Source: Eledone cirrhosa (Eukaryota). Taken from it: DNA of 64,000 nucleotides. A program made the position numbers and the translations under genes. Below, piece after piece: positions 12,568 through 62,925 of the stretch; positions within the stretch are counted from its first letter, which is position 1; every line of letters starts with the position of its first letter. The stretch lies in assembly GCA_964016885.1 (NCBI GenBank), contig OZ024753.1, positions 39,866,001-39,930,000 of the forward strand, in the 5' to 3' direction. The notes beneath the pieces were generated by a model. The model did not search any database. It saw only the letters and a program-made list of their open reading frames with translations, and was not told where the DNA came from.

Positions 12568-12633
12568 TATTTTATCTGATGAGGACGTACTGAGGAAACA
12601 GCTCAGTACCTCTGAAATATATATAATAAAATA
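12568..12633 (+). ncRNA. Type I minimal hammerhead ribozyme motif
   Basis: TATTTTAT-CTGATGA-GGAC GTACTGAG gaaacag CTCAGTAC CTCT-GAAA-TATATA-TA-ATAAAATA; perfect 8-bp helix I and palindromic helix III. Confidence 0.85.
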
Positions 12634-12796
12634 TATTTGATCACATGAATGCCTATATTTATTAATATTTTGAAGTAATATATATATTTATATATATGTG
12701 TGTGTTTAAAATACCTTACTATTTAAAAGATTCAAACGATAATTGATTGAGGACTCAATACTGGTGTGTAAAGTGTAAATATTACTTTCTTAGAAA

Positions 12797-12988
12797 AGGG
12801 CGGTGGATTGGCAGTATCGGTAGAGGGTCGGACGCCATGCTTTCCAGCATAGTTACGTCCCTTTACGATCTGAGTTCAAATCCCGCCGAGGTTGACTTTG
12901 CCTTTCATCCTTTACGGGGGTCGATAAAATAAAGTACCAGTAATACACTGGGGTAATTGCTGGCCTTGTGCCTAAAGAAGAGACAATT
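12797..12988 (+). mobile_element. Full-length SINE copy with TSD
   Basis: Same family as the 8307 cluster; TTTCTTAGAAAAG flanks both ends. Confidence 0.92.
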
Positions 12989-13619
12989 ATTTTCTTAGAA
13001 AAGAGGTAGTGGGTTTGAAATTTCAGCTTTGTTCGCCTCACCTTAGCTATATGTCTGGTGTGTTATGGATGAATTTACGTTCAGGTTTAAGACAATTGGT
13101 CTGAGTTACACACACAGATTTACACTGAGGCAGGCACGCACGCACGCCAAGATACAAAGACACACACACAGAAACGCAGGCAGACACACACCGAGACGGG
13201 CATACACACAGAGAAACAGGTGCAGTCAAACACACATACATACATACATACATACATGTATATATATAGAGAGAGGGGGGGGGTGTATATATAGATAGAG
13301 AACGAGGGATGGGGAGAGAGAGAGGAAAAGAGACAGGTTGTGAGAGAGAGTGTGCTTAGCAGTGTGAAAGAGTGATGTTATATTATGTCATACTGGTACA
13401 GTGTCAACTGAGACGTGTTGACACATACTGCTGCTACTGCTGCTACTACTACTATTGCTACTGCTGCTACTATTACTGCGGTTGCTAGTATTGCTACTGC
13501 TGCTACTACTATTACTACTACCACTGCAGCAGCAGCAATAGCAGCAGCAGCCCCAGGTGTCGGGTGACTAATGATTAAAATGTCAGGCATGTATTAACGT
13601 TTGACATTGAAGGTGTGTG

Positions 13620-14320
13620 TTGGGGGGAGAGAGATGATGTGTGTGTGTGTGTGTGTGTGAGAGAGGGTGAGAGAGAGTTGTGTATGAGAGAGGGAGTTGA
13701 GAGAAGGTGTGAGAGAGATGTCTGTGGGAGAGAGAGGTGAGAAAGAGATCTGAGAGGGAGAGATGAGAGAGAGACGTGTGTGTGTGAGAGAGAGAGATGT
13801 GTGTGTGTGTGAGAAAGATCTAAGAGAGAGAGATGTGTGTATGAGAGAAAGAGATCTGAGAGCGGGAGAGATGAGAGAGAGACGTGTGTGTGTGAGAGAG
13901 AGAGATGTGTGTGTGTGTGAGAAAGATCTAAGAGAGAGAGAGAGAGGTGTGTATGAGAGAGATCTGAGAGAGGGAGAGAGAGACGTGTGTGTGTGAGAGA
14001 GAAAGATCTGGGAGAGAGAGAGAGAGATGTGTGTGTGTGAGAGAAAGATCTAAGAGAGAGAGAGAGGTGTGTGTGAGAGAAAGAGATCTGAGAGAGGGAG
14101 AGATGAGAGAGAGACGTGTGTGTGTGAGAGAGAGAGATGTGTGTGTGTGTGTGAGAAAGATCTAAGAGAGAGAGAGAGAGGTGTGTATGAGAGAGATCTG
14201 AGAGAGGGAGAGAGAGACGTGTGTGTGTGAGAGAGAAAGATCTGGGAGAGAAAGATCTAAGAGAGAGAGAGAGGTGTGTGTGAGAGAAAGAGATCTGAGA
14301 GAGGGTGAGAGATAAGAGGG
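13620..14320. repeat. (GA)/(GT) compound minisatellite
   Basis: Recurrent GAGAAAGATCT, GAGACGTGTGT units. Confidence 0.9.
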
Positions 14321-14454
14321 TGATGGCTGTAACGATAGACGGGGGGGGGGACGGTACATACATTTTCTTTTAATTAATTATTAATTATTTAACCCGCCAG
14401 ATAAACTCCTCATTCTACAGATCTATTATCAAGTACATTCCATCCAAGACCACC

Positions 14455-14658
14455 TCCATCGGTAGATCATCAGACACCATGCTTTACAGCGTAGAGTTAA
14501 GGCCTTTTACGTTCTGAGTTAAAATCCCGCCGAGGTTAACTTTGCCTTTCATCCTTACGGGATCGATAAAATAAAGTACCAGTAATACACTGCGGTTAAT
14601 TTACTCGACTTTCCCCCTCACCCACGATTGTTGGCCTTGTGCCTATAGTAGAAATTAT
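14455..14658 (+). mobile_element. SINE copy (longer-body variant, like 9280-9428)
   Basis: Family core plus TTTA..CGACTTT.CCCC insert. Confidence 0.85.
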
Positions 14659-15920
14659 TGTCAAGGTGGTTTGGTGGTGACAAGCTAGATGAGTGATTAA
14701 ATGTCTAACAGTATTAATGTACATCTTTAGTTACTTTACATACTTTAGAAACTTTACTAGCAGGTGGTTTCAAATTTGGACGTGGATGGAATTTCTAGAA
14801 GGTCGAACGAGCGACCAAGTGAAAGACCTTCACATGGGCTAGTCGAGAAGTTTGTCCTTCCAACTGGCACATTGGTTTGGAAGGAGAAACATTGTCAAAC
14901 TTCTGCTGCTGTTGTTGCTGCTGTTCCCGCCTGCTGCTGCTGCTGTTGTTATTGCACTGAATATTGTAAATGAGTTTCATATTCATAGTTACCTTAAAAC
15001 CTCTTTCTCTCTCCCACGCACAACACTCTCCCCCTCTCTCCCCCTCACACACTCTCACTCTATCTCTCTCTCCCTCCCTAACACACTCTCTCTATCTCAC
15101 ACTATCTCTCTATCTGTCTCTTTCTCTCTCACTCTTTCTCTCTCTCTCTCTCTCTCACTCTTTTTCTCCCCATTTCTCTATCCCTCACTCGGTTTGTTTC
15201 TCTCACTCTTTCTCTCACACACACACACACACACACACACAAACCTCTCTATCTATCTATCTCTCTCTCACCCCTCACACACACTCTCTCTCTCTCTCTC
15301 TCTCTCTCGCTCCCTCCGACTGACTCCTTCTTTCTTTCTTTCCATTAATGTACCGCATTTCACGTTTAATAGCGTTCCGCCTACTTCCCGGCCAAGCAGC
15401 CTACTGCAGTAGGGGTGGTTCGTTTGCGTGATAAGGGCCCATCATCATGGAAGGGGAAAGAAAGTGGGAAGGAAAGAAGCAAGGAAGGCAGGATGTAACG
15501 AGGAGCAGGTCACCTAATAAGAGTCAACTGTACTATTCGATTTCAGGTCAGCGGTCATACAAAATGACGCAATTACCGAAACAAGTAGCTGAGAGATTGG
15601 GAGTTGTTGGGGGCAAAAGGTAATCAAGCAGACCTATGACCAAAGACCTTCCAGTTGTGACAATAAATTATTTTAATACTAAACAGGGTTAACTCTACAG
15701 GTTCATATATGGTGGGGCAGCAATCTATTCTATCGGGGTTGATGTTCTTGATAACTAAATTGCCCCCTTCAGAAGTCTAATTTATGAAAAAAAACCCCCA
15801 CAAAATTAAATAAATGTTAGATAACGATTATATATATATATATATAGCTGTCGAAACGGCCGGAGCTCAGCTGTCGGGGACTTGACTCTTTTCCTATATA
15901 TATATATATATATATATATA

Positions 15921-16080
15921 CGACGGGCTTTCTCAGAGCGTCCGTGTACCAAGTATCACCCACATGGAATTGGTTAATTCAAGGCTATGGTAGAAGATAC
16001 TTGCTCTATGCGGACTCTCAATAGGATTGACCCCAAAGACAAGTTACTGCGGAGCGAATATCTTAATCAGAGAGCCATAC
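15921..16080 (-). mobile_element. Degenerate second SINE family (CORE-SINE-like)
   Basis: CGACGGGCTTTCTCAG..CCGT.TACCAA....GGCTATGGTAGAAGATACTTGC pattern with a decayed tRNA-like head. Confidence 0.55.
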
Positions 16081-16109
16081 TTGAGCTTATGTTGTTGTTG
16101 TTCTTCTTC

Positions 16110-16367
16110 TTCGCCCAATTACTCCTGGGAAGGTTGTTGGGGGTAGAACAGAGTCCTCAAACACTCCTTCCATCGGGCCCTGTCAGAAGCAACTGTCTCC
16201 AACCGATCCGGTTGGGTCCCCAAGCGAGACCACCCAAGTTCATTTATGTTTTCCAGCCCTCTTACTCGGTGCCTATCCCTGGGTGTCCAGCTGGTTGGTT
16301 ATGCCCGTAAAATCTGTCCAACGATTCTTTCCTGAGACATTCTAAGCACATAAACACATGCCCATAG
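16110..16367 (-). mobile_element. RTE-like LINE 3' end (second copy 56790-56985, plus)
   Basis: The two copies align in opposite orientation; translation YGHVVRMSQERIAGQI...TATSDRSRWKVCLRTLPP. Confidence 0.7.
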
Positions 16368-16912
16368 AAAACTGAGATGCTTATGTTATGTAAGTAATTC
16401 TAATTTCTAATACAATGGAATTACGCAATTCGCGTTTAAATGTACTTATAACCTCTGTGTATATTATATATTTTATGTAAAAATAACTGTTGAGTGGTGA
16501 AAAGGTAATAGATTAATCAATTACAAATATACACAGAGTAATACAATTATATATGTCGATAATGTTTTCCTGTAGTGCTATTTTTATAATATTTGTGTAT
16601 ATGGGTTCGTTCATGAATTCGTTCAAAAGTTAATGAAGTATTTCAACACAACAGAATAATATAGGCAAATATTCTATAGTTATATTCTATATAAGTGATT
16701 TAATATATACGTATATCTTTTATGCAGTTAGTATATCTGACTTCATTCGTATGTCTGTGACGCTTAAGTTGTGTCTGTGTGTCCGTAACAGGCTATTGAG
16801 AGTAGCAGTCTACGAATATACAAGGGTCGGCTGAAAACTTCATAAGTTGACCAACAAACCAATATAAATAAATAAATACATTATCGGAGAAAGATTTTAG
16901 CGATACTCCGGC

Positions 16913-16951
<39 letters not shown>

Positions 16952-16954
<3 letters not shown>

Positions 16955-17098
16955 AAAGTGTGGTAAGGAACCAGGTGGACCATAACGTACCAGAGTACTC
17001 GATACATGGGGTGGGTAGTAGAGTGGGTAATAGGAAAAGAGTCAGGATCTAGTGTCAAAACGACCGGAGCTCAGCCGTCGGGGTCCTGACTTTTTTCC
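16952..17098 (-). mobile_element. Family A subfamily 2 fold-back copy (also 15847-15893, 19049-19243, 47602-47731)
   Basis: GGAAAAGAGTCAGG / CCTGACT(C)TTTTCC inverted arms, body homologous to family A, (TA)n flanks. Confidence 0.78.
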
Positions 17099-17398
17099 TA
17101 TATATATATATAATTCCAATAATTGCAAGTTTGAATCTGACATGCAAAAACATATATATATGAATAAGGTATCATGGTAGATTCAAATATCTCAGAGAGA
17201 AAGAGTGAGGGGAGTAGGGAGAAATGAGGTGCGACAGAAATGAAACATGGATTACAGGTTAAAATATAGTCTAGATAGATGTGAAAGAAAACGATGATGT
17301 AGTTTATGGAACACCCAAATGATTTAGAAGTCGACCTTAAGTAGGAGCAATAACATTAAGAAAGACATGAACGACACCACATTATTTTCTATTAACAA

Positions 17399-17691
17399 TT
17401 TTGAAAGTAGGTTTTCTAAGTATGAATTTTCATAAGATTTTCGTAGCATTCTCAGTGGCCTAGTGGTAGGAGCTAGACGGTGGAGATATTGGTCTTGGTT
17501 TCAATCCTGCTCAAAGGTACATGTAACTTTTTTTCAGTTTTTATTTTGCAACCAATAGACAAAAACTGAAAAATTTTACCGGGATCGAACTTCAGACCAG
17601 GATCACCACCGGATATGATTCTTCCAACTTGGCCGCCGAGAGAGCTACAAAAGTATAATGAAAATTAATAATTATAAACCTACTTTCAAAA
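17399..17691. mobile_element. Degenerate ~290-bp palindrome with a tRNA-like segment in each arm
   Basis: TTTTGAAAGTAGGTTT ... AAACCTACTTTCAAAA termini; TGGCCTAGTGG..GGTTTCAATCC in the left arm mirrored by GGATCGAAC..CCAACTTGGCC; TTTTTCAGTTTTT/AAAAACTGAAAAA near the centre. Confidence 0.65.
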
Positions 17692-17989
17692 TCAAAATTA
17701 AAAAGATATATATAACTATATATTGGTAAACCGGATAAGATCTGAATTAAGAATGATTAATTAATGTTGACTTCGGTTAACCTCTCTGAGTATCAGCATT
17801 TTAAGGGTGTTTATATATTCTGGATGCGGCTGGTGAGTAAGCAGCACTCACCATATTGATAAATTGATCTGTAAATATTTAGCTCAATCGATATTATAAT
17901 CACGTTTTAACTCTACAAAATTCTTCAGCAATGTTGGTATTGTCACTGCTTCCGTTTCTCGTTCTCCCCCATTTCTCACTGTTATAAGC

Positions 17990-18272
17990 AAATGGGGAAT
18001 CACGCGCTGGCCGCCCATAGGTCGCAGCGGATAGAACAGAGAAGGCGTTTGCCCGGAGAATGGCGAGGGAGACGCGCTGGAAGACCCTTTCCATCTCGCG
18101 AGGCTCACATCTGTGAGTAGCCAGCTCTATGCCGATGATAGTGAGTATTGACGCGGTTCTAGGTCCATGAACCCCAGAAGACTCCACTGTTACGTACTCG
18201 ACCGCAAACCTGCCAGAGAGGGATCTATATTTGGAGAGTTTACTCTCCTCGGCCCTAGGTGCTGCTGCCCTG
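17990..18272 (-). mobile_element. CRE-like non-LTR retrotransposon C-terminal restriction-like endonuclease fragment
   Basis: AAPRAEESKLSKYRSL...VTVESSGVHGP...EPREMERVFQRVSLAILRANAFSVL fits the E..K..KY / VET.G..G / FQRLS.A.QRGNA pattern. Confidence 0.75.
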
Positions 18273-19004
18273 AACATAAAACAGCAAGTTTTATGTATCA
18301 TGGCGGAATGGCGGAATAACAGGGGAATGATAAAAATATTGACCGAAATTGTCTCACAATTCTCTATTACATTCTTTCTTCGTTATTCGCTCTTACGTTG
18401 TTCTATGAGGAATATAAACTTTCTTTTTAGTACACTGCACTCCCTGTTAGCTAAATGACCTCTTAATTTGTCTACTACTAATTGATTTCCCCTCCTTTTC
18501 CTGTTTCTTTAATCCAATTCAATCTGTTATCTATATAAGACTTATTATTTTCTTATTCGCTTTCACACTCCACTGAATTTTTGTGGTAAGTATTTACAGC
18601 ATAAATTCGTTGGAATCATATTAACTAAAATATATTTTCTTTATAATAATTCTGTTTTTGCAGTTCATAATACAATCTTGCCATAATTTGCTTCCAAATC
18701 CAATAATATGTACTCAGAAACGGTATGACAGTGTTCACATTGAAAATAACTACGCTATACAACACGTCGTAATTTGTGTCTTCCCTGCAAGTCTTGTTGG
18801 AATTGCTGTGATTACGTAGCTCTCAACCTTATATTGTACACCAGGGCTGATATAGATAGATAGATAGAGAGAGAACTTATATTGTAGATGAGGGCTGAGA
18901 GAGTAGGAGAGAGAGCGAGAGAGGGGGGTGGGGGGTAGAGAGAGAGACAGCTTATATTTTACATCACGGCTTCAAGAGAGAAAGGGAGGGGAAGAAGTGA
19001 GTGA

Positions 19005-19050
<46 letters not shown>

Positions 19051-19628
19051 AAAAGAGTCAGGACCCCCCCCCCGACCCGTTCCGACAGCTAGATCCGAAC
19101 ACTGAGTTCGGATCTAGCTGTCGAAACAGCCGGAACTCGGCCGTCGGGGTCTTGATTCTTTTCCTATTACTCATTCTACTACCCTAAGTATCGAAAACTG
19201 GTGCGTTATGGTGCAGCTGGTTCCTTACCACACTTTATTTGTTATATATATATAATAGAGAGAGATAGTAATAATCTAAAGAAGAAGCATATGAACCTAT
19301 CTATGAACTAGAAACTGATATTTATAAAGACGGTAGACAAGTACCTCGTGATTGAGAAGATTACTATGTTGAAAACAAATACACTACATTTGGTTTCAAA
19401 TATATTAAGAAAACGAACATAGATGACAACGAAAACAAAGTAATATAAAACAGACAACTCTATAAAGATCCCTACTTCAGATAGGGCCTAGAGTTTGATA
19501 AAATTTAGGCAGCTGAACGTCAGTGGTGCCAATAGCTGTAAATAAAGAGCTACTGGTGAACGATGTCGTTAAAAAAAAACGAACAGCGTGTATACACCAT
19601 CAACTGTGACAAACTAGACGAGATATAT

Positions 19629-20069
19629 CAGAGGTTCTGAGAGTAGGCGCTACCGCCTCCTGGGTGGTGGTGGGGGCTGGAGCCTAAGGGGTGGTGGGGG
19701 TTTGACAGTAGAGATGATATAATAGTATCTTCTCTCTGACGCTAAATTCCGCCAGTTGCAGACTGCGCATTAACATTTGTTATCTCTCTCGACAAAGTTC
19801 GATCACCAGCAGCAGAGTTCAAAGCGCAAAGATCAACTCCAGTCCATATAATAGTTTATTAAATATCAAATGATACAAAATAGAGAAAAAAAATAAATAT
19901 ATGATATTTATTTATATATATTATATTATTTATTATATATAAATTAACGATTTTATTTATTATATATTATTTACAATTTACGTGTAGATTCGTCTCTCTA
20001 GAAATAGGGGTGGGGTCGCTGAGGATATTACCTGGCCGTAAGGTGGCCCCAAAAGTTTCAGAACCTCTG
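19629..20069. mobile_element. hAT-type non-autonomous DNA transposon
   Basis: TIRs CAGAGGTTCTGA / TCAGAACCTCTG; 8-bp flanks AGATATAT and AGATAGAT (7/8 identical). Confidence 0.75.
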
Positions 20070-20254
20070 AGATAGATGAAGGCGATATCAAAGAGATAGA
20101 AGATGTATCAGAAAACTAAGTAGAGCTTAATAAAACGTGAAGGAAAACGAAACCGTGTTGCGACCAGCAATAGAAAGACCAATGGACACATTGTTTCCTT
20201 ATTTCGATTTGACGAGGTCCACTCGGCAAGCGAATGAGGCTTGGAATCTTGTCG

Positions 20255-20285
<31 letters not shown>

Positions 20286-20287
<2 letters not shown>

Positions 20288-20493
20288 CGAAGGAAATGTG
20301 GTAAGGAACCAGATGGACCATAATGCACCAAAGTACTCAATACTTAGGGTAGTAGAGTGGGTAATAGGAACGAGTAGGACCCCGACAGCAGAGCTGAAGC
20401 CGTTTCGACGGCTAATTCTGGACTAAAATCATTTTAGTCCAGAATTAGCCGTCGAAACGGCTTGAGCTCAGCCGTCGGGGTCCTACTCGTTCC
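20286..20493 (-). mobile_element. Family A fold-back copy (also 47998-48169, 55543-55729 plus, 58022-58154)
   Basis: ~60-bp inverted arms centred on GGACTAAAATCATTTTAGTCC; (TA)n flanks. Confidence 0.82.
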
Positions 20494-20975
20494 TATATAT
20501 ATATATATATATGTATGTAAACTCCCCATTTGTATTTGTCCCCTTTTTTTGTGCCCTTGTGGCTAATAAAGAAATTTATATATGTATATATATATGTGTG
20601 TGTGTGTGTGTGACTACGTGGTGTGTATGTATGAGTATTACGGACAAATAAAGGAAGACTTTGCGGTCTCTACTTCAATTTATCATTAAAAGTACGTCTG
20701 TTTGTATGTATTTGTATATAATTGAGTGTTAGTGAGGGTTTGTGGACATATCTGTGAGTATGTTTGTGTATGCACGTATCTATATGAGCGTGTGTGTGTG
20801 TGTGTGTGTAATTCTCTTTCTCTCGCTCATTTTCTCTCTATTTATCTAACTCTAGCTTTCTCTGTATATCTCTTTCTCTCTCTCTAGTCCTGTAGAAGCC
20901 TTTCTATATCGAATATTTAAACTCTGCTATGTACCTTACCCCAGATTGAACCCGGGATAAACATATATATATATA

Positions 20976-21273: not shown

Positions 21274-21287
21274 AATATATATATATA

Positions 21288-21544
21288 TAAGCTATCGCCG
21301 TATTTTGACTAAAGATTAAAGAGATTATTTAGCCTGATAGTGGGGTTAAGAACCCTCGGAGAAATGGAAAAAGATGAGTATTGAAATACATTTTCGTCAA
21401 TAATCATCTTTTTCCATTTCTCCGAGGGTTCTTAACCCCACTATCAGGCTAAATAATCTCTTTAATTTCTTTAGTCAAAATACGGCGATAGCTTACATTT
21501 ATAATAATTTCAAACCCGCTCGCTGTTTCGAAAATATTCTTACT

Positions 21545-21548: not shown

Positions 21549-21588
<40 letters not shown>

Positions 21589-21589
<1 letters not shown>

Positions 21590-29180: not shown

Positions 29181-29372
29181 GGGCGGTGGATTGGCAGTAT
29201 CGGTAGAGAGTCGGACACCATGCTTTGAAGCATAGAGTTACGTCCCTTTATGATTTGAGTTCAAACCCCGCCGAGGTTAACTTTGCCTTTCATCCTTACG
29301 GGGTCGATAAAATAAAGTACCAGTAATGCACTGGGTAATTGCTGTCCTTGTGCCAAAAGTAGAAGCAATTAT
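29181..29372 (+). mobile_element. Full-length SINE with TSD
   Basis: ATTATTTTAGCATTA flanks both ends. Confidence 0.92.
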
Positions 29373-33884: not shown

Positions 33885-33926
33885 AAGAGTCGGCAAATCT
33901 ATTTATTTATAAGACTGTCTATATTG

Positions 33927-33992
33927 TATTTTGTCTGAAGAAGGCATAACATATTGTTAATATGATATCCCTGAAATATATATAATGAAATA
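33927..33992 (+). ncRNA. Type I minimal hammerhead motif in family D element (33905-34034)
   Basis: TATTTTGT-CTGAAGA-AGGC ATAACATATT gtt AATATGATAT CCCT-GAAA-TATATA-TA-ATGAAATA. Confidence 0.8.
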
Positions 33993-34056
33993 AATATGGT
34001 TTTATAAATATAATTTCCATTTATTTAATATCGTATATATATATATATATATATAT

Positions 34057-34249
34057 ATTTAATATAGAAAGGCTTCTACAGGACCAGAACTGTTTTATTC
34101 GGGAGAAATCATCAGGCTTCCTGATGATTTTTCCCGAATGAAACAGTTCTAGCCCTGTAGAAGCCTTTCTATATTAAATATTTATATTCTGCTTTGTATT
34201 GAGTACCTCTTACTTAATGTCGTTAGCCCCGATTGAACCCGGGATAAAA
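34057..34249 (+). mobile_element. Family C fold-back element with a complete hammerhead
   Basis: 34057-34115 is inverted relative to 34120-34179; (TA)n flanks. Confidence 0.85.
34114..34166 (+). ncRNA. Type I hammerhead ribozyme motif (GUA site)
   Basis: AGGCTTC-CTGATGA-T TTT TCCC GAA T-GAAA-CAG ttctagcc CTG-TA-GAAGCCT. Confidence 0.82.
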
Positions 34250-38799: not shown

Positions 38800-39357
38800 T
38801 TATTGTTCATTTAGCTTGGGTTTGAATTTATCAATAAAATTCTTTTCTTTGATTTTTCTCTTGATTTCACTTGGGCTGTGTAATTTGTAGAATGGGAATA
38901 TTATAAATATTCCCTGACCACATGTTGCCAGGTGGCCGCTTAGGGGTATCTGACGGACATTTGGGTCTCTGATTTGTTGACGGTGTACCCGTGCACGTTC
39001 CGATAGTGCATTTCCAGTTTGACCGACATATAGTTCTTCACAATTCGGGCATTTAATGCAGTAAATTAGATTTCTGCTTTTGCAGTTCATATTTGCATTT
39101 GTGAATATTTTTCCAGTTTTTGTTTTCATATATTGACCGGCGTGTATGGATTGACATGTGCCGCATCGATTATCATTGCATTTAGATACAGTGAATGATT
39201 GGTCTTTGTTGTTAAGGTCAAACTTTGCTTTTGTTAGCAATTGCTTCAAATTTTTTGGCTGTCTTTTACTAAGAGTCAAAGATCGATCTGTGATTAAGCC
39301 TTTTAATTCATTACTTTGAGCAATGATCGGTAGGTTTGCTTTGGCAGTGTTGAAGAT
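38800..39357 (-). CDS. PLE C-terminal linker, Cys-rich motif and GIY-YIG endonuclease (5'-truncated; Neptune/Naiad-like)
   Basis: SKRQPKNLKQLL, CNDNRCGTC, NCKSRNLIYCIKCPNCEELYVGQT..LSERARVH, H..C, E..FI.KFKPKLN; frame stays open upstream of 39279 (IFNTAKANLPIIAQSNELKGLITDRSL) to the TA tract. Confidence 0.88.
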   Translation of the reverse strand: MFNTAKANLPIIAQSNELKGLITDRSLTLSKRQPKNLKQLLTKAKFDLNNKDQSFTVSKCNDNRCGTCQSIHAGQYMKTKTGKIFTNANMNCKSRNLIYCIKCPNCEELYVGQTGNALSERARVHRQQIRDPNVRQIPLSGHLATCGQGIFIIFPFYKLHSPSEIKRKIKEKNFIDKFKPKLNEQ

Positions 39358-39931
39358 ATATGTGTATATATATATATATATTTATAGCTTCCTTTTACAC
39401 AAGACACAAGTACTTATACACGCTCTCATAAACAGTCACACAAACTGAAAAAAAAACTCAGCAAAAAAAAATATCTCATTTTATCTTTTTCTTCTCCAAT
39501 CTCTCTCCCCCTCTCTCTGTCTCTTTCTCTCTCTCTCCCCCCCCTCTCTCTCTCTCTCTCTTTACTTCTCCACTCCATTTCTCTTGAAGATTTCTCTTGA
39601 AGGATAAAAAGAAAATTGTAATTTATTAATCATATTGAGATTTAAAAAAAACTTTTTCCCCTCAGTTGTATGTTTGTGTTTGTTCAGTATAGGGAACTTT
39701 GAAGAGTTGTAATGGTGAGGAATGATTATCTAATCAGTTTGGCTGATGAAAAACGGAAGTGTGAATCGTGTCATTAATTCTATTTCATCTCCTTCCGCCA
39801 GTCACATCGGTCATATGAGTTTTATCATTTTACCAAAACATCATCTCACTATTTTGAAGAACTCACACAAAAGTCTCTTACATACATGCATACCTCAACA
39901 TACATATAGTGTGATAAGGCAACCTTTTATA

Positions 39932-48949: not shown

Positions 48950-49005
48950 ACTGCCTGATGAGGTCATAGCCATTCAATGGCTATCATCGAAATATATATA
49001 GCAGT
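48950..49005 (+). ncRNA. Type I minimal hammerhead motif in a (TA)n-flanked ~165-bp insert (48887-49050)
   Basis: ACTGC-CTGATGA-GGTC ATAGCCATT c AATGGCTAT CATC-GAAA-TATATA-TA-GCAGT. Confidence 0.87.
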
Positions 49006-52339: not shown

Positions 52340-52383
<44 letters not shown>

Positions 52384-52475
52384 TAGAAGGGATATTTAAT
52401 TTGTTGGAAATCCAACAAATATAAATGTTTATAACTGATTCAGAGCACTCGACAAGTTTCTGGAGTAAATATTCA

Positions 52476-52646
52476 ATGATATTAAATAAATGGAAACTAT
52501 ATTTATAAAACCATATTTATTCTATTATATATATTTCAAGGCTACCAAAAAACTTTGGTACGCTTTTTTTTTGGTAGCCTTGAAATATATATAATAGAAT
52601 AAATATGGTTTTATAAATATAGTTTCCATTTATTTAATATCATTGT
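52476..52646. mobile_element. Family D perfect fold-back (~75-bp arms)
   Basis: CAATGATATTAAATAAATGG...GGCTACCAAAAA / TTTTTGGTAGCC...CCATTTATTTAATATCATTG; the turn lies inside hammerhead helix II. Confidence 0.85.
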
Positions 52647-53519
52647 GTATATATATATATATATATATATAAAATCACCTCTACCCCATCACTCCTCTCA
52701 CAACCATCAGAAACGCTAATGAGCTACCATAAGTCTCTATCATCATCATCATCATCCTCATCTTATCATTATTTTCTTCATTAATATTGTTGCTGTTATT
52801 AACGTTATCGCTGTAATGTTTCACAATATTGAGCCTCATGACAACACTCTTTGAGTAAACCCATTATCAAAGCGTTCCATCCATGACAATCCTATCTTAT
52901 TTACTGACAATATATCCAGCATAGAGTTATGGCCCTTTATGTTCTGAGTTCAAATCCGGTAGAGGTTAACTTTGCCTATCATCCTTACAAGGTCGATAAA
53001 ATGAAGCACCAGTAATTCACTGGGGTAATTGCTGGCCTTGTGCCAAAAGTAGGATTGACAGTATCAGTAGAGTCGGATACCATGCTTTCCAGCATAGAGT
53101 TATGTCCCTTTATAGTCTGAGTTCAAATCCTGCTGAGGTTGACTTTGCCTTTCATCCTTACAGGGTCGATAAAATAAAGTACCAGTAATACACTCGAGTA
53201 ATTGCTGGCCTTGTGCCAAAAGTAGAAATACTTATTATCTATATTACGTTTTATTTTTCACAAGATTGAAAGATGTGGTAGTTTGAGGGAAGTTTGGCTG
53301 CTTTTTCTAGTCATTTTAAGCATCCAATGTAAAGTCTCGTTCGTTAAATCCACGTTGTTGATATCGTTGTCTGCAATTATTCTTGTTGTTATTGTTGTTC
53401 TTGTTGTTGTTGCTGTGTCTTCTTTCTTTTTAGTCAGGTCAATGTCTCAAATAGTTTGATCCATAATTAGATGCGTCAAAAACCTTTTGGCAGAATTATT
53501 GTAAAGAGTTATATAAAGA

Positions 53520-54130: not shown

Positions 54131-55000
54131 AATATAATATAACCACTCTGCTCTATTGGAGAGGATAATTGTTGAAGTATTCAACAATATTCTGGACATT
54201 CAATTATAACAAACGGGTAAATAAAAGCTAAACGATACTATAAACATTTAAGAGTTAGTACTCCTCATATTCCCAGCTGACAGACGGAAGACATTGGAGC
54301 ATGATGAGGGATACACGCTAGAACAGCTATTCTAATTCACAGGGCTAGCTTGTGCGGGTAGCCATCTCCACCCCGATACTAATAAGTAGGGTTGTGATCA
54401 GAGACCAAGAACTTCCCGAAATTTCCATTGTTAAAACATTCCAGACTGTGCTGGTCAAGCCGAGGAACCAACCCGATGCGAGGTCATATTATATTAGATG
54501 TCACCCCATTTATTTTGAGGAAACTTGGACGTCTACGAAAGGGGAGAAAGGGATGGAGATCCGCTGGGTGGAGGTCGAGTTGGTCCCATGACATTTATGC
54601 TGTTTCGCATTTTGCGCTCACGCTATGTTGCGTGCTGTTGTAGAAATCTCTGCTGGTGATGACACGGTAGGAGGTTACTGACGGAAGTAATGCCAGCGTA
54701 GCCAATGAGACTAGAAACTGGAGACAGAGGCCACCTTATCTGACGGCTGAGCTGGCTTGTTGCTATCCGAGAAAGAAAGCAAGGCTGAACTAACGAAATG
54801 TAACTGAATGTTTATTTTATATAGAATTTATAAAATAGAATTAAATGTGTCTATTATCATAAGTTTGATTGGGTGGAAATACTTAGGAACGCTTGCTGCA
54901 TAAATATGGAATAGTTATGTGGGCGCTAGCATACTTGAAATAGACATAATCTCAGTTTAAAGCAGCGTCACCATATATATATATGTATATATATATATAA

Positions 55001-55088
<88 letters not shown>

Positions 55089-55124
55089 ATTAATAAATGG
55101 AAACTATATTTATAAAACCATATT

Positions 55125-55191
55125 TATTTCATTATATATATATTTCAAGGATACCAAGTTAAATCATGGTATGCCTTCATCAGACAAAATA
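55125..55191 (-). ncRNA. Type I minimal hammerhead motif in family D element (55085-55220)
   Basis: Minus strand: TATTTTGT-CTGATGA-AGGC ATACCA tgatttaact TGGTAT CCTT-GAAA-(TA)5-ATGAAATA. Confidence 0.8.
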
Positions 55192-55259
55192 CAATATATA
55201 ACAGTTTTACAAATAGATATTGACGTACCCTTTCAAAAAGGTGACCGTTGTTTATGGAG

Positions 55260-55299
<40 letters not shown>

Positions 55300-55404
55300 T
55301 AAAAGGAAAAGAAAATGCTGACAAATTGTTCCCAGTGAAAAATAGTTTAATTAGGAATAAGTAAAAATTAGTAATAGTATTGGTTAGTATTCAGTTTTGG
55401 TTTT

Positions 55405-55446
55405 AAGTTTTACCGGTTGCGCATTTCTAATGCTTTTCAAAAATAA
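55405..55446 (-). ncRNA. Degenerate U3-A8 hammerhead variant in a (TA)n-flanked insert (55297-55478)
   Basis: Minus strand: TTT-TTGAAAA-GCAT tagaa ATGC-GCAA-CCGG-TA-AAA (GAAA mutated to GCAA). Confidence 0.45.
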
Positions 55447-55726
55447 TTTTGAGATAGAGCGCCCGTGATGTTTGCTCTAATATATATATATATATATACA
55501 CATGCACGCACACACACATGTATGTATATGTATATATATATAGGAACCAGTAAGACCCCGACGGCTGAGCTCAGGCCGTTTCGACGGCTAATCCAGAATT
55601 AGCCGTGGAAACGGCTTGAGCTCAGCCGTCGGGGTCTTACTGGTTCCTATTACCCACTCTACTACCCTAAGTATTGAGTACTTTGGTGCGTTATGGTCCA
55701 CCTGGTTCCTTACCACATTTCCTTCG

Positions 55727-55774
<48 letters not shown>

Positions 55775-55823
55775 ATATATACATATACACATGCACGCAC
55801 ACACACAAACATATGTATGTATA

Positions 55824-55885
<62 letters not shown>

Positions 55886-55887
55886 CA

Positions 55888-56235
55888 TTAAACATACGGT
55901 ATGCCAAATATACTATATATACATTCATGTATACATCGCTATTTCAGAGCACCAATCCTACTACTTAATTTTTGCTGGACCGGCAATCGCTCTGTATAAT
56001 CAGCTCCTGATTATTACTGGAATTCTATAAGAATCCAGCTTCTATAATTTTCGGCGGAAGCAGGGTAGTGCGTGGCTCTGATGAACGCCAACCAGCGTGA
56101 AACAGTCTGTCAGCTTCTCTCCCTTCTTTCGTCGAAAAGAAGTGTCATAGTCACTAATTTAAAACTGATAGCGTATGGTCTTCTAAATGTTTTTAATTAA
56201 ACATACGGTATATTGCCAAATATACTATACACACA

Positions 56236-56240
<5 letters not shown>
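55888..56240 (+). mobile_element. Retrozyme-like or pLTR-like unit with ~43-bp terminal direct repeats (family L)
   Basis: TTAAACATACGGTAT(AT)TGCCAAATATACTATA.ACATTCAT-like repeat at ~55888 and ~56197; hammerhead inside; (TA)n flanks. Confidence 0.7.
56074..56115 (+). ncRNA. Type I hammerhead ribozyme motif (GUC site)
   Basis: GGCT-CTGATGA-ACGC caacca GCGT-GAAA-CAG t CTG-TC-AGCT. Confidence 0.85.
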
Positions 56241-56298
<58 letters not shown>

Positions 56299-56734
56299 CA
56301 GATGAAAGTTTAAGCAAAGAATCGCTGCTTTCACCCTTAACGGGATCTTCTGAAACTAACAAAGTCAATCTGTAAACGCAGAAGTGGATATTTCAAAAAA
56401 CGTTGCAACTGGAGGAAGACAGGAAGACGATACTTTGGTTCGTGGAAACGTTCGCTATGCAAATAAGTAATGGTATAAACAAAACATATACTTAGCTCCC
56501 ACATCAAGACGTAAAATATCCACGTATAGATCGTACTATCCGTTAGGGTATAACGTGGGGCTGTAATACAGGAAAGAGGCGATTCTTTGCTTAAACTTTA
56601 ATCTGTTATTTTAATAAATATTTGCTCTACGGTTCTTATTTATTTGATATATATTTATCCTTATCGAGCCCTCTTTCGATTTTAGTCTTCAAATTTACTA
56701 TTATATATATATATATATGTTTGTATGTGCGTGC

Positions 56735-56788
<54 letters not shown>

Positions 56789-57287
56789 CAGCTCCGAAAC
56801 TATGGGCATGTGGTTAGAATGTCTCAGGAAAGAATCGCTGGACAGATTTTATGAGCATAGCCAACCGGCAGGAGACCCATAAGCTTTGCTGGTCTCACTT
56901 GGAGATCCAACCGGATAAGTTGGAGACGGCTACTTCTGACAGGAGCCGCTGGAAGGTGTGTTTGCGGACACTGCCCCCTCTGCACGACCCTGTCGATAAA
57001 ATCAAGTACCAGTAAGCACTGGGGTCAATTTTATCGCCTTCCCCTTACAAATTGCTGGCCTTGTGGTAGAAACATTTATTAGGTGGTTTCTAACAAGCAT
57101 TGTGATAAAACATGAAATCATTTCTGTTTCGTGTAATGGAGCCATTTTTAATAATCTAATTTTAACGAATTATTCCTGTCGTTTAGATCACACAGACACA
57201 CACACACGCACAGACATACACATTCACAGACACATACACACACACATTCACAAACATATTCACATCCACACCAACACAAACACACAC

Positions 57288-57346
<59 letters not shown>

Positions 57347-57579
57347 CATACGCGTGTACACATATATATATATACTTTGTAAGATATATATATATATATA
57401 CATACACATACAATCCCACCCCACACACACACTCACACACACACACACACATACATATATACATATATGTGTAAATATATATTTATATGTATATATATAT
57501 GTGTGTAAATATATATTTATATGTATATATGTATGTGTGTAAATATATATTTATATATATATATGTGTAAATATATATT

Positions 57580-57638
<59 letters not shown>

Positions 57639-57692
57639 AAATATATATTTACATATATATATATATATGTGTGTGTAAATATATATTTTCAC

Positions 57693-57770
<78 letters not shown>

Positions 57771-58425
57771 AAATTTCCATATATATATATATATATTTTG
57801 TATACAGATGTTGTACACAAAAGGTCTGTGCAGTTCAAACAATGTTTTCTACGCCCACTCATAAAACAAAAATAAATAAGGAGACTAAAGGTATATTCCT
57901 AGAATTATAGCTGGAAATAGTTCAGTCATTTACTTTTTCTGTAAACACAATCACAAAATATTTCTTAGAGCCACAAAATTAATTAATCCCAACATATTTT
58001 TGCAGTTCATATATATATATAGGAACATGTATGATCCCAACGGCAGAGCTCAAGCCGTTTCGACGGGTAATTTTTTTTTTTTTTTTTTTTTTTTTTAGTC
58101 CAGAATTAGCCGTCGAAACGGCTTGAGCTCAGCCGTCGGGGTCCTAGTCGTTCCTATATATATATATATATATAGGGATGGTTTATTGTTTGAAAACTCG
58201 TTTGTTTTTAATAGCTCTATATTCTTAACTTATTCTGATTATCATTTCTTTCAGTTAAATGATGATAGACAGCAAGGTAACCCAGCGTATGAAAGGGCAT
58301 GCTTTAATATTTGCCTTAAAGGCAAAGCATAGCGATGTAGATATTGTTTGGATTGCTGGCAGTTGCACTGGCTACTGAGATAGTTATGACATGATTACAT
58401 TCATAGCAAGACTCTTGTGTATTTA

Positions 58426-58590
58426 TCTATATACTACTAAAACTATGTAATTGCTTGCTTGCTTGCTTGCTTTTCTATAATGTAATACAGCCAAAAGGTT
58501 ACATAATGGGAAAATACTTTGAAAGGAAGTTGACCCTCAAATGGGAATACAAATGGAATAAAACAAGTTTCACGTAAAACATATATATAT

Positions 58591-58623
<33 letters not shown>

Positions 58624-58799
58624 CACACACACATTTATATATAACCATACACACACATATATATGGGCCTTCCTGTTTCATTTCACATTAAATACATGTC
58701 TGTGTATATTTTAATTATTTAAAAATTATTTTTAAGTGAACATGATTTTAAAAAAATATTTTGAAGTGAACGTGACCGAACGGGTCACGCGTGGTCTAG
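58426..58799 (+). mobile_element. Candidate non-autonomous Helitron
   Basis: A|TC start; subterminal hairpin CGTGACC-gaacg-GGTCACG followed by CTAG|T; the 5' boundary is less certain. A similar 3' end lies on the minus strand at ~27374-27402. Confidence 0.5.
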
Positions 58800-59039
58800 T
58801 TGTATATAAATACATCATATATGCTATCATATTATATACATCCCTATTACATGACGGTTTATCATTTTCTATATTCTTAGTATCTCTGGAACTATATATG
58901 TAACTGCGTTTCTTCTATCATCTCACCTCTTTCACTGGTTATTTTATTTTGGTACACATCTTTAAAATTAAGCGTCAGAAAGTCCTATTTCTGTCCCAGT
59001 AGTTTTACACTTTTTGCAAAGTAATAGTTTACTGACCTT

Positions 59040-59400
59040 TGCTCGTCTTCATTTAAAGTCAAGGATAATAATATATCTTCTTTCCTTTGCATGTATAGAC
59101 AACTGACTTTTGCCTTCGGATGTAGAACGCCATAGATATCTTCTGCTTTCCCGCCTAATACATCTGTTTCGTCTTTCGTCCAATTCGCTAATCCAGTATT
59201 CTAAAGAATAACAGCAAACTTCCATGTGTTGATGGCATTTATAGAAATCCTTGAATATCTTCGACTTCAAAATCAGCTTTAATCTTTTCAACCATCTTAT
59301 TTCCGTGTATTTCATCATTTCCCTATTCATGATCTTTTCTGGTTTCAGTACGCCAAGATACTAGTTCCCATTATTCTCAAATTTTGATATTTGTTCTTTC
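59040..59400 (-). mobile_element. R4/Dong-like LINE RT remnant, frameshifted
   Basis: Across frames: YLGVLKPEKIMNRE..KRLKLILKSK / NAINTW / NWTKDE / YGVLHPKAKVSCLYMQRKE. Confidence 0.65.
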
Positions 59401-59564
59401 AAGAAAGCCATTCCATTAAAATAGGTTCTCTTCCCTCTCTTCATATTTAAAGACGCAAAGTTTGATAGAAAACATTTCCTGTTAATAACACTACAACATA
59501 TCTTTACTGTGTTTACCGTTGAATCAAGCTTTTTTCTCAGCCATTGCTTTTATATATGGACTAA

Positions 59565-59657
<93 letters not shown>

Positions 59658-59787
59658 TGTCTCTCTCTCTCTCTTTCTCTCTCTCTCTAACAATTGTTCT
59701 CGATGTGTTGAATTAACCGTTGTGTTAACTGTTGTACCAATAATACACTGATAATTGCTGGCCTTGTGCCAAAAGTAGAAACAATTA

Positions 59788-60035
59788 TTGTTGTTGATGT
59801 TGTTGTTGTTAGCATTATCATCATCGCCATCATCCTATCATCATGATCATCATCTTCATCATTCTTGTCCTCATCCTATCATCATCATCATCATCACCGT
59901 CATTCTCATCATCATCTTCATCATCTTCATCATCATCTTCATCACCATCATTATCATCCTATCATCATCATCTTCATCATTCTCTTCATCTTCATCATCA
60001 TCATCCTATCCAACTTCATCATCATCCTATCCAAC

Positions 60036-60070
<35 letters not shown>

Positions 60071-61075
60071 ATCTCTCATCATCATCGTCGTCGTCACTAG
60101 AAACACAAAAAAAAGAACACAATTCGGGTCATCTTTACTTTTTCTCTTCTCTAAAAAATATTTGTTCTTCTTTTCCTTGTTTTTTCTTCCTTTCTTGTTT
60201 GTCTCCCTTTAATGTCTGATTAAATTTCCCTTCCTTCTGTTTTAGCTTTGATGCTTAATGAAAGTTCAAGCATTTTCGTTTTCTGTTTGTTTTTTTATAA
60301 GCAATAATATGAATAACAACAACAACAACCAAAACAACAACGAACATAACAAAAATTAAAAAAATAACAACTACAATTCCAACAACACCAACAACATCAC
60401 CAACCACATCACCATCAACAAAAAACACCAAGACCAACACCACAACCACCACCACCACTACCACCAACAGCAACAACAACTTAAACAACAACGAACATAA
60501 CAAAAATTAAAAAAATAACAACTACAATTCCAACAACACCAACAACATCACCAACCACATCACCATCAACAAAAAACACCAAGACCAACACCACAACCAC
60601 CACCACCACCACCAACAGCAACAACAACTTAAACAACAACGAACATAACACAAATAACAATAACAACTACAATTCCAACAACACCACCAACAACAACAAT
60701 AACAAATGATATAACAGAAACACTGCCAAAACCAACAATAATAATAACAACGGCAACAACAACAAATACACCACCACCAACAACAGCGGCAACGACAGCA
60801 CTACACCACCACCAACAGCAACGACAAATACACCAACAACAACATCAGCAACGACAAATACAACAACAACTGCAACAACTACAATACCACAACCACCAAT
60901 AACACTAACAACAGTAACGAAACAACAACGACAACAACAATAACAATAACAGCAACAATAACGACAGCACTACACCACCACCACCACCACCAACAATAGC
61001 AACAACTACAATACCACCACCATCATGACCAACAACAACAATAACAATAACAACAACAATAACAGCAACAATAAC
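59788..61075. repeat. (CAT)n and (CAA/CAC)n tracts with a ~150-bp tandem duplication (~60332-60650)
   Basis: AACAACAACGAACATAACAAAAATT... repeated. Confidence 0.9.
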
Positions 61076-61959
61076 AAGTCTGTCAGCATCAACAGTTTAA
61101 AATTCAACACCAAAAAACAAAACAAAAACAACCCCATTAAATACGCCACTCTTTGTCACGTGGACAATTTCAGAGGCGCGGGATTGATCGATAAAGATCA
61201 TTGTTTTATTTGGTGCCTATTTCATCGATCTCATGAATGGTAATGGTTCTGGTGATGGTGGTGGTGGTGCGGATGGTGTGGTGGAAATGGTGTTAATGGT
61301 AGTGGTAGTGATGAAAGTGGTGTCATGATGTTTGTTGTAGTGGTGGTGGTTGGTGATGATGATGATGATGATGATGATGGTGGTGGTTGGTGTTGGTGGT
61401 GGTAGTGGTGGAAGATCAAAGTAAATGGTGACCTCGATGGTGGGAAAAGTAACATCAAGATTAAAAAGTAATGCCATAAATATCAACAGACATTATACAA
61501 GGAGAAGAGAAACGACATCAAAAATAACAGCAACAAAATAGAAAATAACAGCAATACTAACGACAACAACAACAACAACAGCAACAAGAACTTTAAACAT
61601 TAAAGATTTTATAAAGATATAATTTGAAAAATACCTAAGAAAAATACCTGAAGAAACACAATCTTCACTCCAAATTTTAATACAGATTGCTTTTTTTGTC
61701 AATATTCTCTTTAGCGAGATAAAATAAAGCACACACACACGTACACGCACAGCCACATACACGCACACACACACACAAACAGACACACACTCACAAAAAA
61801 GACGTACTTTCTCTATCTCTTTCTTTCTCTCCCCCTCCCCACACGCTCACACATATTTGTATAACATCATTTGAATAAATAGTCATTCACTTCTACCTAA
61901 CAGTATAGAATGCTTTTTTTTTACTTAATTGCAATTTAGGTCAGTCTAGAACTACAAGC

Positions 61960-61998
<39 letters not shown>

Positions 61999-62096
61999 AT
62001 AATAATACATGCGAAGACTAAAATCGAAAGAGGGCTCGATAAGGGATTTCAGAAGATCCCGTTATTTCTGCGATTCTTTGCTTAAACTTTAATCTG

Positions 62097-62128
<32 letters not shown>

Positions 62129-62204
62129 TTCGTTTCTGAATTTGTTTAGCAAGATTCTTTATCTGAAATCGTGTGTTGAAACCGATATTGTTATATTATA
62201 TTAT

Positions 62205-62372
62205 ATTACATTACATTACATTACATTACATTACATTACATTACATTACATTACATTACATTACATTACATTACATTACATTACATTACATTACATTACA
62301 TTACATTACATTACATTACATTACATTACATTACATTACATTACATTACATTACATTACATTACATTACATT
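62205..62372. repeat. (ATTAC)n pentanucleotide microsatellite, about 33 units
   Basis: Perfect repeat. Confidence 0.97.
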
Positions 62373-62394
62373 TATATTATATTTATATTATATA

Positions 62395-62583
62395 GGGCGG
62401 TGGATTGGCAGTATCAGTAGAGGGTCGGACGCCATGCTTTCCAGCATAGTTACGTCCCTTTACGATCTGAGTTCAAATCCCGCCAAGGTTGACTTTGCCT
62501 TTCATCCTTACGGGGTCGATAAAATAAAGTACCAGTAATGCACTGGGTAATTGCTGGCCTTGTGCCAAAAGTAAAAACAATTA
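62395..62583 (+). mobile_element. Full-length SINE copy
   Basis: Family consensus match. Confidence 0.92.
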
Positions 62584-62622
62584 TATTATATATATATATA
62601 TTTATAAAACTGCTCTATATTA

Positions 62623-62687
62623 TATTTTATCTGATGAAAGCACACCATAATTTGACTTGGTGTCCTTGAAATATGTATAATGAAATA
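62623..62687 (+). ncRNA. Type I minimal hammerhead motif
   Basis: TATTTTAT-CTGATGA-AAGC ACACCA taatttgact TGGTGT CCTT-GAAA-TATGTA-TA-ATGAAATA. Confidence 0.8.
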
Positions 62688-62860
62688 AATATGGTTTTAT
62701 AAATATAGTTTCCATTTGTTAATATCGTATTTTTGCTCCAAATATTTATTGAGTGCTTTATATCAGTTATAAAAATATTTGCTTGTTGTATCCCAACAAT
62801 TTAAATAGAACTTTTACATATATATATATATATATATATTTATAAAACTGCTCTATATTA

Positions 62861-62925
62861 TATTTTATCTGATGAAAGCACACCATAATTTGACTTGGTG
62901 TCCTTGAAATATGTATAATGAAATA
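62861..62925 (+). ncRNA. Type I minimal hammerhead motif (second monomer)
   Basis: Identical to 62623-62687. Confidence 0.8.

What the first reader, a model, noticed from the sequence alone, without database searches (positions are those of the whole stretch)
12568..62925. Hammerhead subclass with TATATA helix III and an invariant C-C mismatch at pair 4 of a long helix II
Five different sequences share the same helix II architecture: three pairs, then a C opposite C, then a 6-10-bp stem. They are GGA-C/C-TCT (12583), AGG-C/C-CCT (33942), GGT-C/C-ATC (48962), AGG-C/C-CTT (55176, minus) and AAG-C/C-CTT (62638). Flanking pairs covary (for example ATACCA/TGGTAT vs ACACCA/TGGTGT vs GTACTGAG/CTCAGTAC), and helix I also differs (ACTGC/GCAGT vs TATTTTAT/ATAAAATA). 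This indicates selection on RNA structure, with the C-C possibly a tertiary-contact or protein-binding site (inference). I do not recall this being described. Helix III being a short (TA)n, like the genomic target, is also notable.
Basis: partly seen in the sequence, partly recalled or inferred. Interest (0 to 1): 0.75.

Follow-up and report, generated by a model that had tools for sequence, protein, structure and literature searches.

The report
Open cytosine in Penelope hammerhead ribozymes
These are hammerhead-type RNA motifs, predicted to self-cut, at the ends of one lineage of Penelope-like jumping genes with over 100,000 copies in this animal genome, and across deeply diverged families one cytosine in the second stem stays unpaired while the pairs around it swap, which likely marks a docking site for the element's own protein.

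Summary
All named window copies are type I hammerheads with three pairs, C opposite C, then a long stem. They are the terminal-repeat ribozymes of Hydra-clade Penelope-like retrotransposons (RT plus C-terminal GIY-YIG, inserted in (TA)n). Genome-wide there are about 88,500 C·C, 30,200 C·U, 2,300 C·purine and only 529 C-G pattern matches. In 36 sequence clusters pair 4 never pairs and the 5' C is kept in 35, while neighbouring pairs covary. Silent sites between the families are at chance identity, so this points to selection rather than descent. Two corrections: the invariant feature is the 5' C kept unpaired, not C·C; and helix III is a palindrome (TATATA, TACGTA, TGATCA, TGCGCA), the known dimer-forming stem of such ribozymes, not a mimic of the TA target. 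None of 25 published Hydra-clade ribozymes has the mismatch, and I found no description in six literature searches. Function is untested; a site for the element's protein is my best guess (about 45%). This scan noted the same feature earlier elsewhere in this genome (e1-8671138). New variant of a known kind.

The parts
12568..12633 (+). Type I hammerhead, helix II GGA-C/C-TCT, helix III TATATA, predicted cut after 12625; within a short terminal-repeat fragment (about 12560-12697)
33927..33992 (+). Type I hammerhead, AGG-C/C-CCT, predicted cut after 33984; 5'-truncated copy (33896-34041) 92.5% identical to the terminal repeat of an element with an open ORF, flanked by (TA)n
48950..49005 (+). 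Type I hammerhead of a second deep family, helix I ACTGC/GCAGT, GGT-C/C-ATC, predicted cut after 49000
55125..55191 (-). Type I hammerhead, AGG-C/C-CTT, helix III with one extra TA; fragment 55220-55077 ends in (TA)n
62623..62687 (+). Type I hammerhead, AAG-C/C-CTT, helix III TATGTA, predicted cut after 62679; fragment 62592-62826
62861..62925 (+). Exact tandem duplicate (238-bp period) of the 62623 hammerhead; not independent evidence
63147..63220 (-).
52374..52566 (-). 5'-truncated terminal-repeat copy that begins inside helix II (no CUGANGA box), joined head-to-head to an inverted fragment; C·C still present

Best explanation
The motifs are type I hammerheads in the terminal repeats of a subclade of Hydra-clade Penelope-like retrotransposons; they are predicted to cut only as dimers through a palindromic helix III, and the unpaired C after three pairs of helix II likely serves as a recognition site for the element's own RT-endonuclease protein. 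Shown here: the element's identity and layout (repeat-ORF-repeat, about 3.7-4.0 kb, tandem and inverted copies, (TA)n flanks), the covarying helices, the conserved open C, and that genomic copies carry the whole ribozyme plus 40-150 nt beyond the predicted cut. Inferred: the RNA that was copied was uncut (or re-ligated) at the 3' ribozyme; the weak helix III keeps a lone ribozyme off; two copies pair through an 8-bp intermolecular helix III to process tandem transcripts; and the protein, which must start reverse transcription just 3' of the ribozyme, docks on the C·Y loop and helps or gates folding. Odds: identity about 95%, selection on the open C about 90%, dimer cleavage about 75%, protein site rather than another role about 45%.
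For: Identity: motifs flank ORFs with YRDD RT, RW(K/R/T), DKT, CxCx5C linker, GIY-YIG, CxxC and CxH, which are the Hydra-clade features and match its alignment by eye. Selection: pair 4 paired in 0 of 36 clusters, 5' C in 35 of 36; other pairs 1-9 paired in 30-35 of 36 with several pair types; 13 of 16 pairs change on both sides, 0 of 500 shuffles reach the covariation score. Four-fold silent sites between families are 0.11-0.40 identical against 0.23-0.29 expected at saturation. C-G at pair 4: 529 matches, scattered over many backgrounds, against 88,540 C·C and 30,235 C·U. C is kept although 12 of 36 representatives have it in CpG. No change at the mismatch in contigs of other coded organisms while neighbours vary. 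Dimer: monomer helix III +4.7 kcal/mol, dimer duplex -2.2 to -10.5 for the common words; PMC4209133. Uncut template: 3' ends cluster 40-59 nt (57 of 132) and 130-149 nt (37 of 132) past the cut; 0 of 31 5' ends at the cut. Protein assistance of a Penelope-type hammerhead is published (PMC11167929). No conserved partner base in helix I.
Against: No cleavage, binding or expression data for these RNAs. The protein-site step rests on exclusion and on analogy to a different clade (Poseidon). The partner base tolerates C, U and, in two small families, A, so only one base is fixed. The 36 clusters descend from perhaps 5-8 lineages, only five of which I tied to an RT, and part of the sample came from searches that required or excluded the C. 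Pair 4 decays in individual copies like its neighbours (7 and 4 of 145), as expected after insertion but giving no copy-level signal. Pfam does not recognise the RT. The RT tree is the quick version without bootstrap. TATATA and TATGTA dimers are weak (-3.2 and -2.2 kcal/mol), and two ribozymes of one element lie about 4 kb apart.
Confidence: 0.55

Rival explanations
1. The C·Y is a minimal internal 'loop 2': the open C takes a tertiary RNA contact from helix I, or from the partner ribozyme in the dimer, and stabilises the active fold without protein.
For: It lies where helix I passes helix II. In the Schistosoma hammerhead a C from the helix I loop stacks on stem II in front of the first C of loop 2, and CChMVd(-) uses an internal loop 2 (PMC2632901 passages). 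U at 1.7 occurs in 27 of 36 clusters.
Against: The canonical site follows 4 bp and this one follows 3. The 3' base is C/U rather than the conserved A. Helix I has no conserved loop or partner: position 2.7 is A 22, U 8, G 5, C 1, and 1.7 is usually paired.
Confidence: 0.3
2. The mismatch only weakens the base of a long helix II to tune folding and keep the ribozyme slow until dimerisation; base identity is secondary.
For: Pyrimidine mismatches add little stability (established knowledge). The partner varies among C, U and A. The basal three pairs are often A-U, G-U or U·U.
Against: The position is fixed and the 5' base is C in 35 of 36 clusters. U·C and U·U would weaken the stem as well and arise often by mutation, yet no amplified family uses them among the rows seen.
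Confidence: 0.1
3. No function: the mismatch is inherited from one ancestor, or the C is held by an overlapping DNA, splice or coding signal.
For: All families with a linked RT fall in one clade. 15 of 25 published Hydra-clade families also have a C at this place, paired to G (my count), so the C itself may be ancestral.
Against: Silent sites are saturated between families, and the adjacent pairs have all turned over. The ORF starts about 190 nt past the cut, and no conserved AG or other motif surrounds the C.
Confidence: 0.05

Closest known systems
Hydra-clade Penelope-like elements and their hammerheads (Craig et al. 2021, PMC8557442; seen: abstract, passages, section 11, supplement parts 2-3 and passages)
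   Same: Single ORF with RT and C-terminal GIY-YIG, RWK/DKT/CxCx5C/CxxC/CxH motifs, (TA)n insertions, type I hammerhead near the 3' end, short helix III; an octopus family (Hydra-1_Obim) is listed.
   Different: Elements here are 3.7-4.0 kb rather than under 3 kb. None of the 25 tabulated families has a C·C or C·U at pair 4 (15 have C-G, my count). Helix II here is longer, and copy number exceeds 100,000 ribozymes.
Penelope-associated minimal and small-palindrome type I hammerheads (Cervera and de la Pena 2014, PMC4209133; seen: text parts 1-2 of 4, supplement parts 1-2 of 3)
   Same: Terminal-repeat location, long helix II, palindromic helix III, dimer cleavage with low activity, mostly solo truncated copies and inverted pairs.
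   Different: Their hallmark is a bulged base between 9 and 10.1 and G10.1-C11.1. Here pair 1 is A-U, G-U, G-C or U·U with no bulge, and there is a fixed 1x1 loop at pair 4. None of the 56 aligned examples shows C·C there by eye; one sea-urchin row has C·A.
Poseidon PAc hammerhead of Anolis (Frangieh et al. 2024, PMC11167929; passages seen)
   Same: Reverse transcription starts at two sites; uncut RNA is the template. This matches the two clusters of 3' ends here.
   Different: A different clade, whose ORF starts inside the ribozyme; protein dependence was measured there and is only inferred here.
Canonical type I hammerheads with loop 1-loop 2 contact (Schistosoma, CChMVd; Dufour et al. 2008, PMC2632901, passages seen) and non-LTR retrozymes (PMC7229834, passages; bioRxiv 10.64898/2026.07.22.740005, part 1 of 5)
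   Same: Same core; a C at the top of the basal stem II takes part in a tertiary stack.
   Different: They have 6-bp helix I, 4-bp helix II and conserved loops, in short tandem non-coding repeats. Here there is a 3-bp basal stem, a continuing helix, no conserved loop 1, and an autonomous coding element.

Membership tests
Type I hammerhead ribozyme | CUGANGA and GAAA boxes, A15.1-U16.1, NUH triplet, helix I open-ended | tested here: met
   All seven complete window copies; boxes invariant in alignment A1.
Type I hammerhead ribozyme | Helices I-III supported by covariation | tested here: met
   13 of 16 pairs with changes on both sides; slid controls score 0.08-0.16 against 0.665.
Type I hammerhead ribozyme | Match to an Rfam hammerhead model at gathering score | tested here: not met
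   0 matches in the window; the E-value scan's 150 listed rows (of 453) held no hammerhead family.
Type I hammerhead ribozyme | Self-cleavage at the NUH site | not testable with these tools
   Needs an in vitro assay or raw RNA reads.
PLE-associated dimeric hammerheads | Short palindromic helix III | tested here: met
   TATATA, TATGTA, TACGTA, TGATCA, TGCGCA, TGTGCA; monomer unstable, dimer stable.
PLE-associated dimeric hammerheads | Located in the terminal repeats of a PLE | tested here: met
   Direct and inverted repeats around ORFs; 4,011-bp tandem array.
Cervera minimal hammerhead consensus | Bulged base between 9 and 10.1 and G10.1-C11.1 | tested here: not met
   Pair 1 is A-U 10, G-U 10, G-C 10, U·U 5, A·A 1 of 36; symmetric register favoured.
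Canonical type I hammerhead with loop-loop contact | 4-bp helix II with apical loop ending in A, and a conserved helix I internal loop | tested here: not met
   3 bp, C·Y, then stem continues; no conserved helix I loop.
Hydra-clade PLE | RT followed by C-terminal GIY-YIG in one ORF | tested here: met
   Open frames of 737-821 aa with YRDD and a C-terminal endonuclease region; Pfam GIY-YIG only weakly (E 1.5e-4), RT not recognised by Pfam.
Hydra-clade PLE | RWK motif, DKG changed to DKT, CxCx5C linker, CxxC and CxH, no CCHH | tested here: met
   RWK in L139, RWR/RWT in others; DKT in all read; CNCx5C; CxxC...CxH; no CxxC inside the GIY-YIG (read by eye).
Hydra-clade PLE | Insertion into (TA)n | tested here: met
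   112 of 132 group-1 copies have a (TA)n run within 400 nt downstream, in two clusters.
Hydra-clade PLE | Length generally under 3 kb | tested here: not met
   Repeat-to-repeat distance 3.7-4.0 kb; a descriptive trait, not a diagnostic one.
Hydra-clade PLE | Groups with published Hydra RTs in a tree | not tested
Non-LTR retrozyme | Non-coding short tandem repeats with one hammerhead per unit | tested here: not met
   Copies are truncated ends of coding elements; one 238-bp duplication in the window only.

The most novel reading that the evidence does not exclude
A cephalopod-associated lineage of Penelope-like elements evolved a protein-gated hammerhead: the open C in helix II is the specific handle by which the element's RT-endonuclease recognises its own RNA and decides between cutting it and copying it. 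This would give the first sequence-level handle on what Penelope hammerheads are for.
Probability: 0.25. Interest if true: 0.72.

Novelty: new variant of a known kind. Interest (0 to 1): 0.42.

Why it matters
The role of hammerheads in Penelope-like elements is stated as unclear in PMC8557442, and the one reconstituted example needs the element's protein to cut (PMC11167929). A single base kept open across families whose silent sites are saturated is a precise, cheap target for testing that link, in an element with many open-ORF copies. It also adds a natural helix II variant that Rfam's gathering thresholds miss although it occurs over 100,000 times in one genome. If the mutant has no effect, the finding drops to a family marker.

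Tried and rejected
Rfam: no hammerhead at gathering score; the listed weak hits were repeat-driven miRNA matches. Helix III as TA-target mimic: rejected. Slipped helix II register with a bulged C: favoured by folding in one copy but not by covariation. Coding or splice constraint on the C: no overlap with the ORF and no conserved flanking signal. 5' ends at the cut site as a trace of cleavage: 0 of 31. Sequencing runs: no RNA holder listed. Runs X9 and X11 gave only 4 and 2 contigs; X11 is uninformative. A 481-codon frame beside one copy is simple repeat. The careful RT tree did not finish. Helix II rows for 48955 and 63213 were cut one base short and were redone. Lunse et al. (PMC5785218) is not held; I saw it only as cited in a review, and its alignments could hold this variant. 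Supplement file 1 of PMC4209133 was not searchable, and bioRxiv supplements are closed.
Full report
Observation. A descriptor that does not constrain pair 4 finds seven long-helix-II type I hammerheads in the window, all with three pairs, C·C, then a stem: 12576, 33935, 48955, 55183 (minus), 62631, its exact duplicate 62869, and a new one at 63213 (minus) with helix III TACGTA. Rfam finds none at gathering score. Three of the named copies are 83-93% identical to one family's terminal repeat, so the window alone holds fewer independent lineages than five.

Scale. With helix II left free, the main group has 44,801 genome matches and the reversed control has 0. Requiring C·C, with one letter dropped from the pattern, gives 42,750; 95 of the 100 rows are C·C. 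A second group with a C-G based helix I has 12,404 matches (control 2), 96 of 100 listed rows C·C by my reading. A third free search (helix III TGNNCA) gave 31,256 matches (control 73): all 100 listed rows have the 5' C, about 38 opposite C and 62 opposite U. Totals by partner: C·C 88,540 (control 2,005), C·U 30,235 (control 760), C·purine 2,256 (control 99), C-G 529 (control 27), non-C 9,740 (control 418). The helix III part of these patterns differs between and 57/58/82, so ratios are approximate, and each count holds some decayed or unrelated matches. The C-G rows are scattered over many family backgrounds plus an unrelated satellite. The C·purine rows include two small C·A families. The non-C rows mix another hammerhead family, chance matches and single mutants.

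Host element. Pairs of ribozymes 3.3-4.4 kb apart, direct or inverted, flank an ORF. Many copies have open frames of 737-750 aa, including a 4,011-bp tandem array. The protein has RW(K/R/T), DKT, YRDD, a CxCx5C linker, a C-terminal GIY-YIG without internal CxxC, then CxxC and CxH. These are the features that define the Hydra clade (PMC8557442 section 11), and the sequence follows that paper's alignment by eye. Pfam sees only a weak GIY-YIG. The nearest named homologue is from Argonauta hians at 43%; most others are unnamed at 33-47%, so the host is probably a cephalopod (inference). No Hydra-type ORF lies in the window: its copies are truncated 3' ends beside (TA)n.

Is pair 4 special? All loci gave 337 hits, 193 distinct sequences and 36 clusters with T-starting helix III. 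The sample includes loci from searches that required the C (picks) or excluded it. Pair 4 is paired in 0 of 36: C·C 30, C·U 4, U·C 1, C·A 1. Other pairs 1-9 are paired in 30-35 of 36, and their commonest 5' base reaches only 16-23 of 36. In the 17 clusters with two or more sequences the 5' C is 17 of 17. For the alignment I gave 32 of the 36 representatives (left out: L142, two of L045, and L217, the one U·C cluster) plus five window copies: 13 of 16 pairs change on both sides, pair 4 is unpaired in 36 of 36 distinct rows, and slid controls collapse. Five families could be tied to an RT; they are 43-75% identical in protein, and their four-fold silent sites are at about chance identity (13 comparisons, 0.11-0.40 against 0.23-0.29). 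They fall in one clade with four database proteins, the C·U family nested inside (quick tree, SH-aLRT 95, 79 rows: 17 own and 62 of 119 homologues). Within clusters, individual copies decay at pair 4 like neighbours, so the signal is between master lineages. In contigs of other coded organisms the C·C (runs X5, X7, X9) and the C·U (X5-X8) show no change while neighbours vary, including compensating changes; few contigs span the motif in X7-X9.

Outgroups. Other long-helix-II hammerheads in this genome, with different helix III, have A-U or U-A at pair 4 (four clusters). None of 25 published Hydra-clade families has the mismatch, and 15 have C-G there (my count), so an ancestral C-G pair may have opened in this lineage (inference). 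None of the 56 examples in PMC4209133 Fig. S3 shows C·C by eye.

Helix III. It is TATATA in 18 of 36 clusters, otherwise TATGTA, TACGTA, TGCGCA, TGATCA, TGTGCA and a few single mutants. As a hairpin it costs +4.7 kcal/mol; as a dimer duplex it gains 2.2-10.5 for the common words. This is the published palindromic, dimer-forming helix III (PMC4209133; review PMC6765202). The likeness to the TA target is incidental.

Mechanism. Among 132 group-1 copies, the nearest downstream (TA)n starts 40-59 nt (57) or 130-149 nt (37) past the predicted cut; 20 have none within 400 nt. Of 31 5' boundaries of long-ORF copies, 23 read through the upstream cut site and none lies at it. So the copied RNA held an intact 3' ribozyme, and reverse transcription likely begins at two sites just beyond it, as shown for PAc, where uncut RNA is the template and the ribozyme cuts only with the element's protein (PMC11167929). 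The C needs to stay free of G, has no conserved RNA partner in helix I, and lies near these start sites, so I rank a protein site first (about 45%). An RNA tertiary contact comes second (30%): in the Schistosoma structure a helix I C stacks in front of the first C of loop 2 (PMC2632901), but after four pairs and with loop motifs absent here. Stability tuning (10%) and no function (5%) follow. None of this is tested.

Novelty. The ribozyme class, its element, the palindrome and the TA targeting are known. Six searches and passages of the O. vulgaris repeat paper (PMC13282606, no mention of hammerheads) gave no description of the mismatch, but Lunse et al. could not be read. Verdict: real, a new variant of a known kind, interest 0.42.

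Noticed in passing
window 38803-39381 (-) and 38419 (-): GIY-YIG frame (Pfam E 4.6e-7) with a Cx4CxxC linker and internal CxxC, Neptune-like by recalled motifs, followed about 380 nt downstream by a short-helix-II hammerhead with GTAC palindrome and no C·C: an in-window outgroup.
   Followed up: partly
window 34060-34200, 50017-49950 (-): Another hammerhead family with a long helix III (loop TTCTAGCC type); at 34115/34121 two copies overlap head-to-head on opposite strands.
   Followed up: no
window 7192 (-), 56352 (-), 56078 (+), 47833 (-), 28780 (-): Further hammerhead-like motifs of at least three other families with short helix II.
   Followed up: no
window 52360-52660; L163, L172, L156: Truncation or inversion junctions fall inside the ribozyme, mostly in helix II, in several copies, as if reverse transcription stalls or switches template there. 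Not counted against a background.
   Followed up: partly
window 12135-12325: Near-perfect 190-bp inverted repeat, MITE-like.
   Followed up: no
window, about 25 places (e.g. 8345-8445, 29274-29372, 62405-62589): A very frequent short interspersed repeat, 85-98% identical between copies, also nested in L139; SINE-like, unidentified.
   Followed up: no
L200:6279-7501 and similar loci: Small hammerheads with CTAG palindrome recur at about 467-bp spacing, retrozyme-like.
   Followed up: no
G000:C2:36.05-36.22 Mb: A satellite cluster built of short units holding CTGAAGA and GAAA words that matches hammerhead patterns without forming the helices.
   Followed up: no
L043, L045: Non-LTR-type RT followed by a PHD finger (Pfam), unrelated to the Hydra elements.
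   Followed up: no
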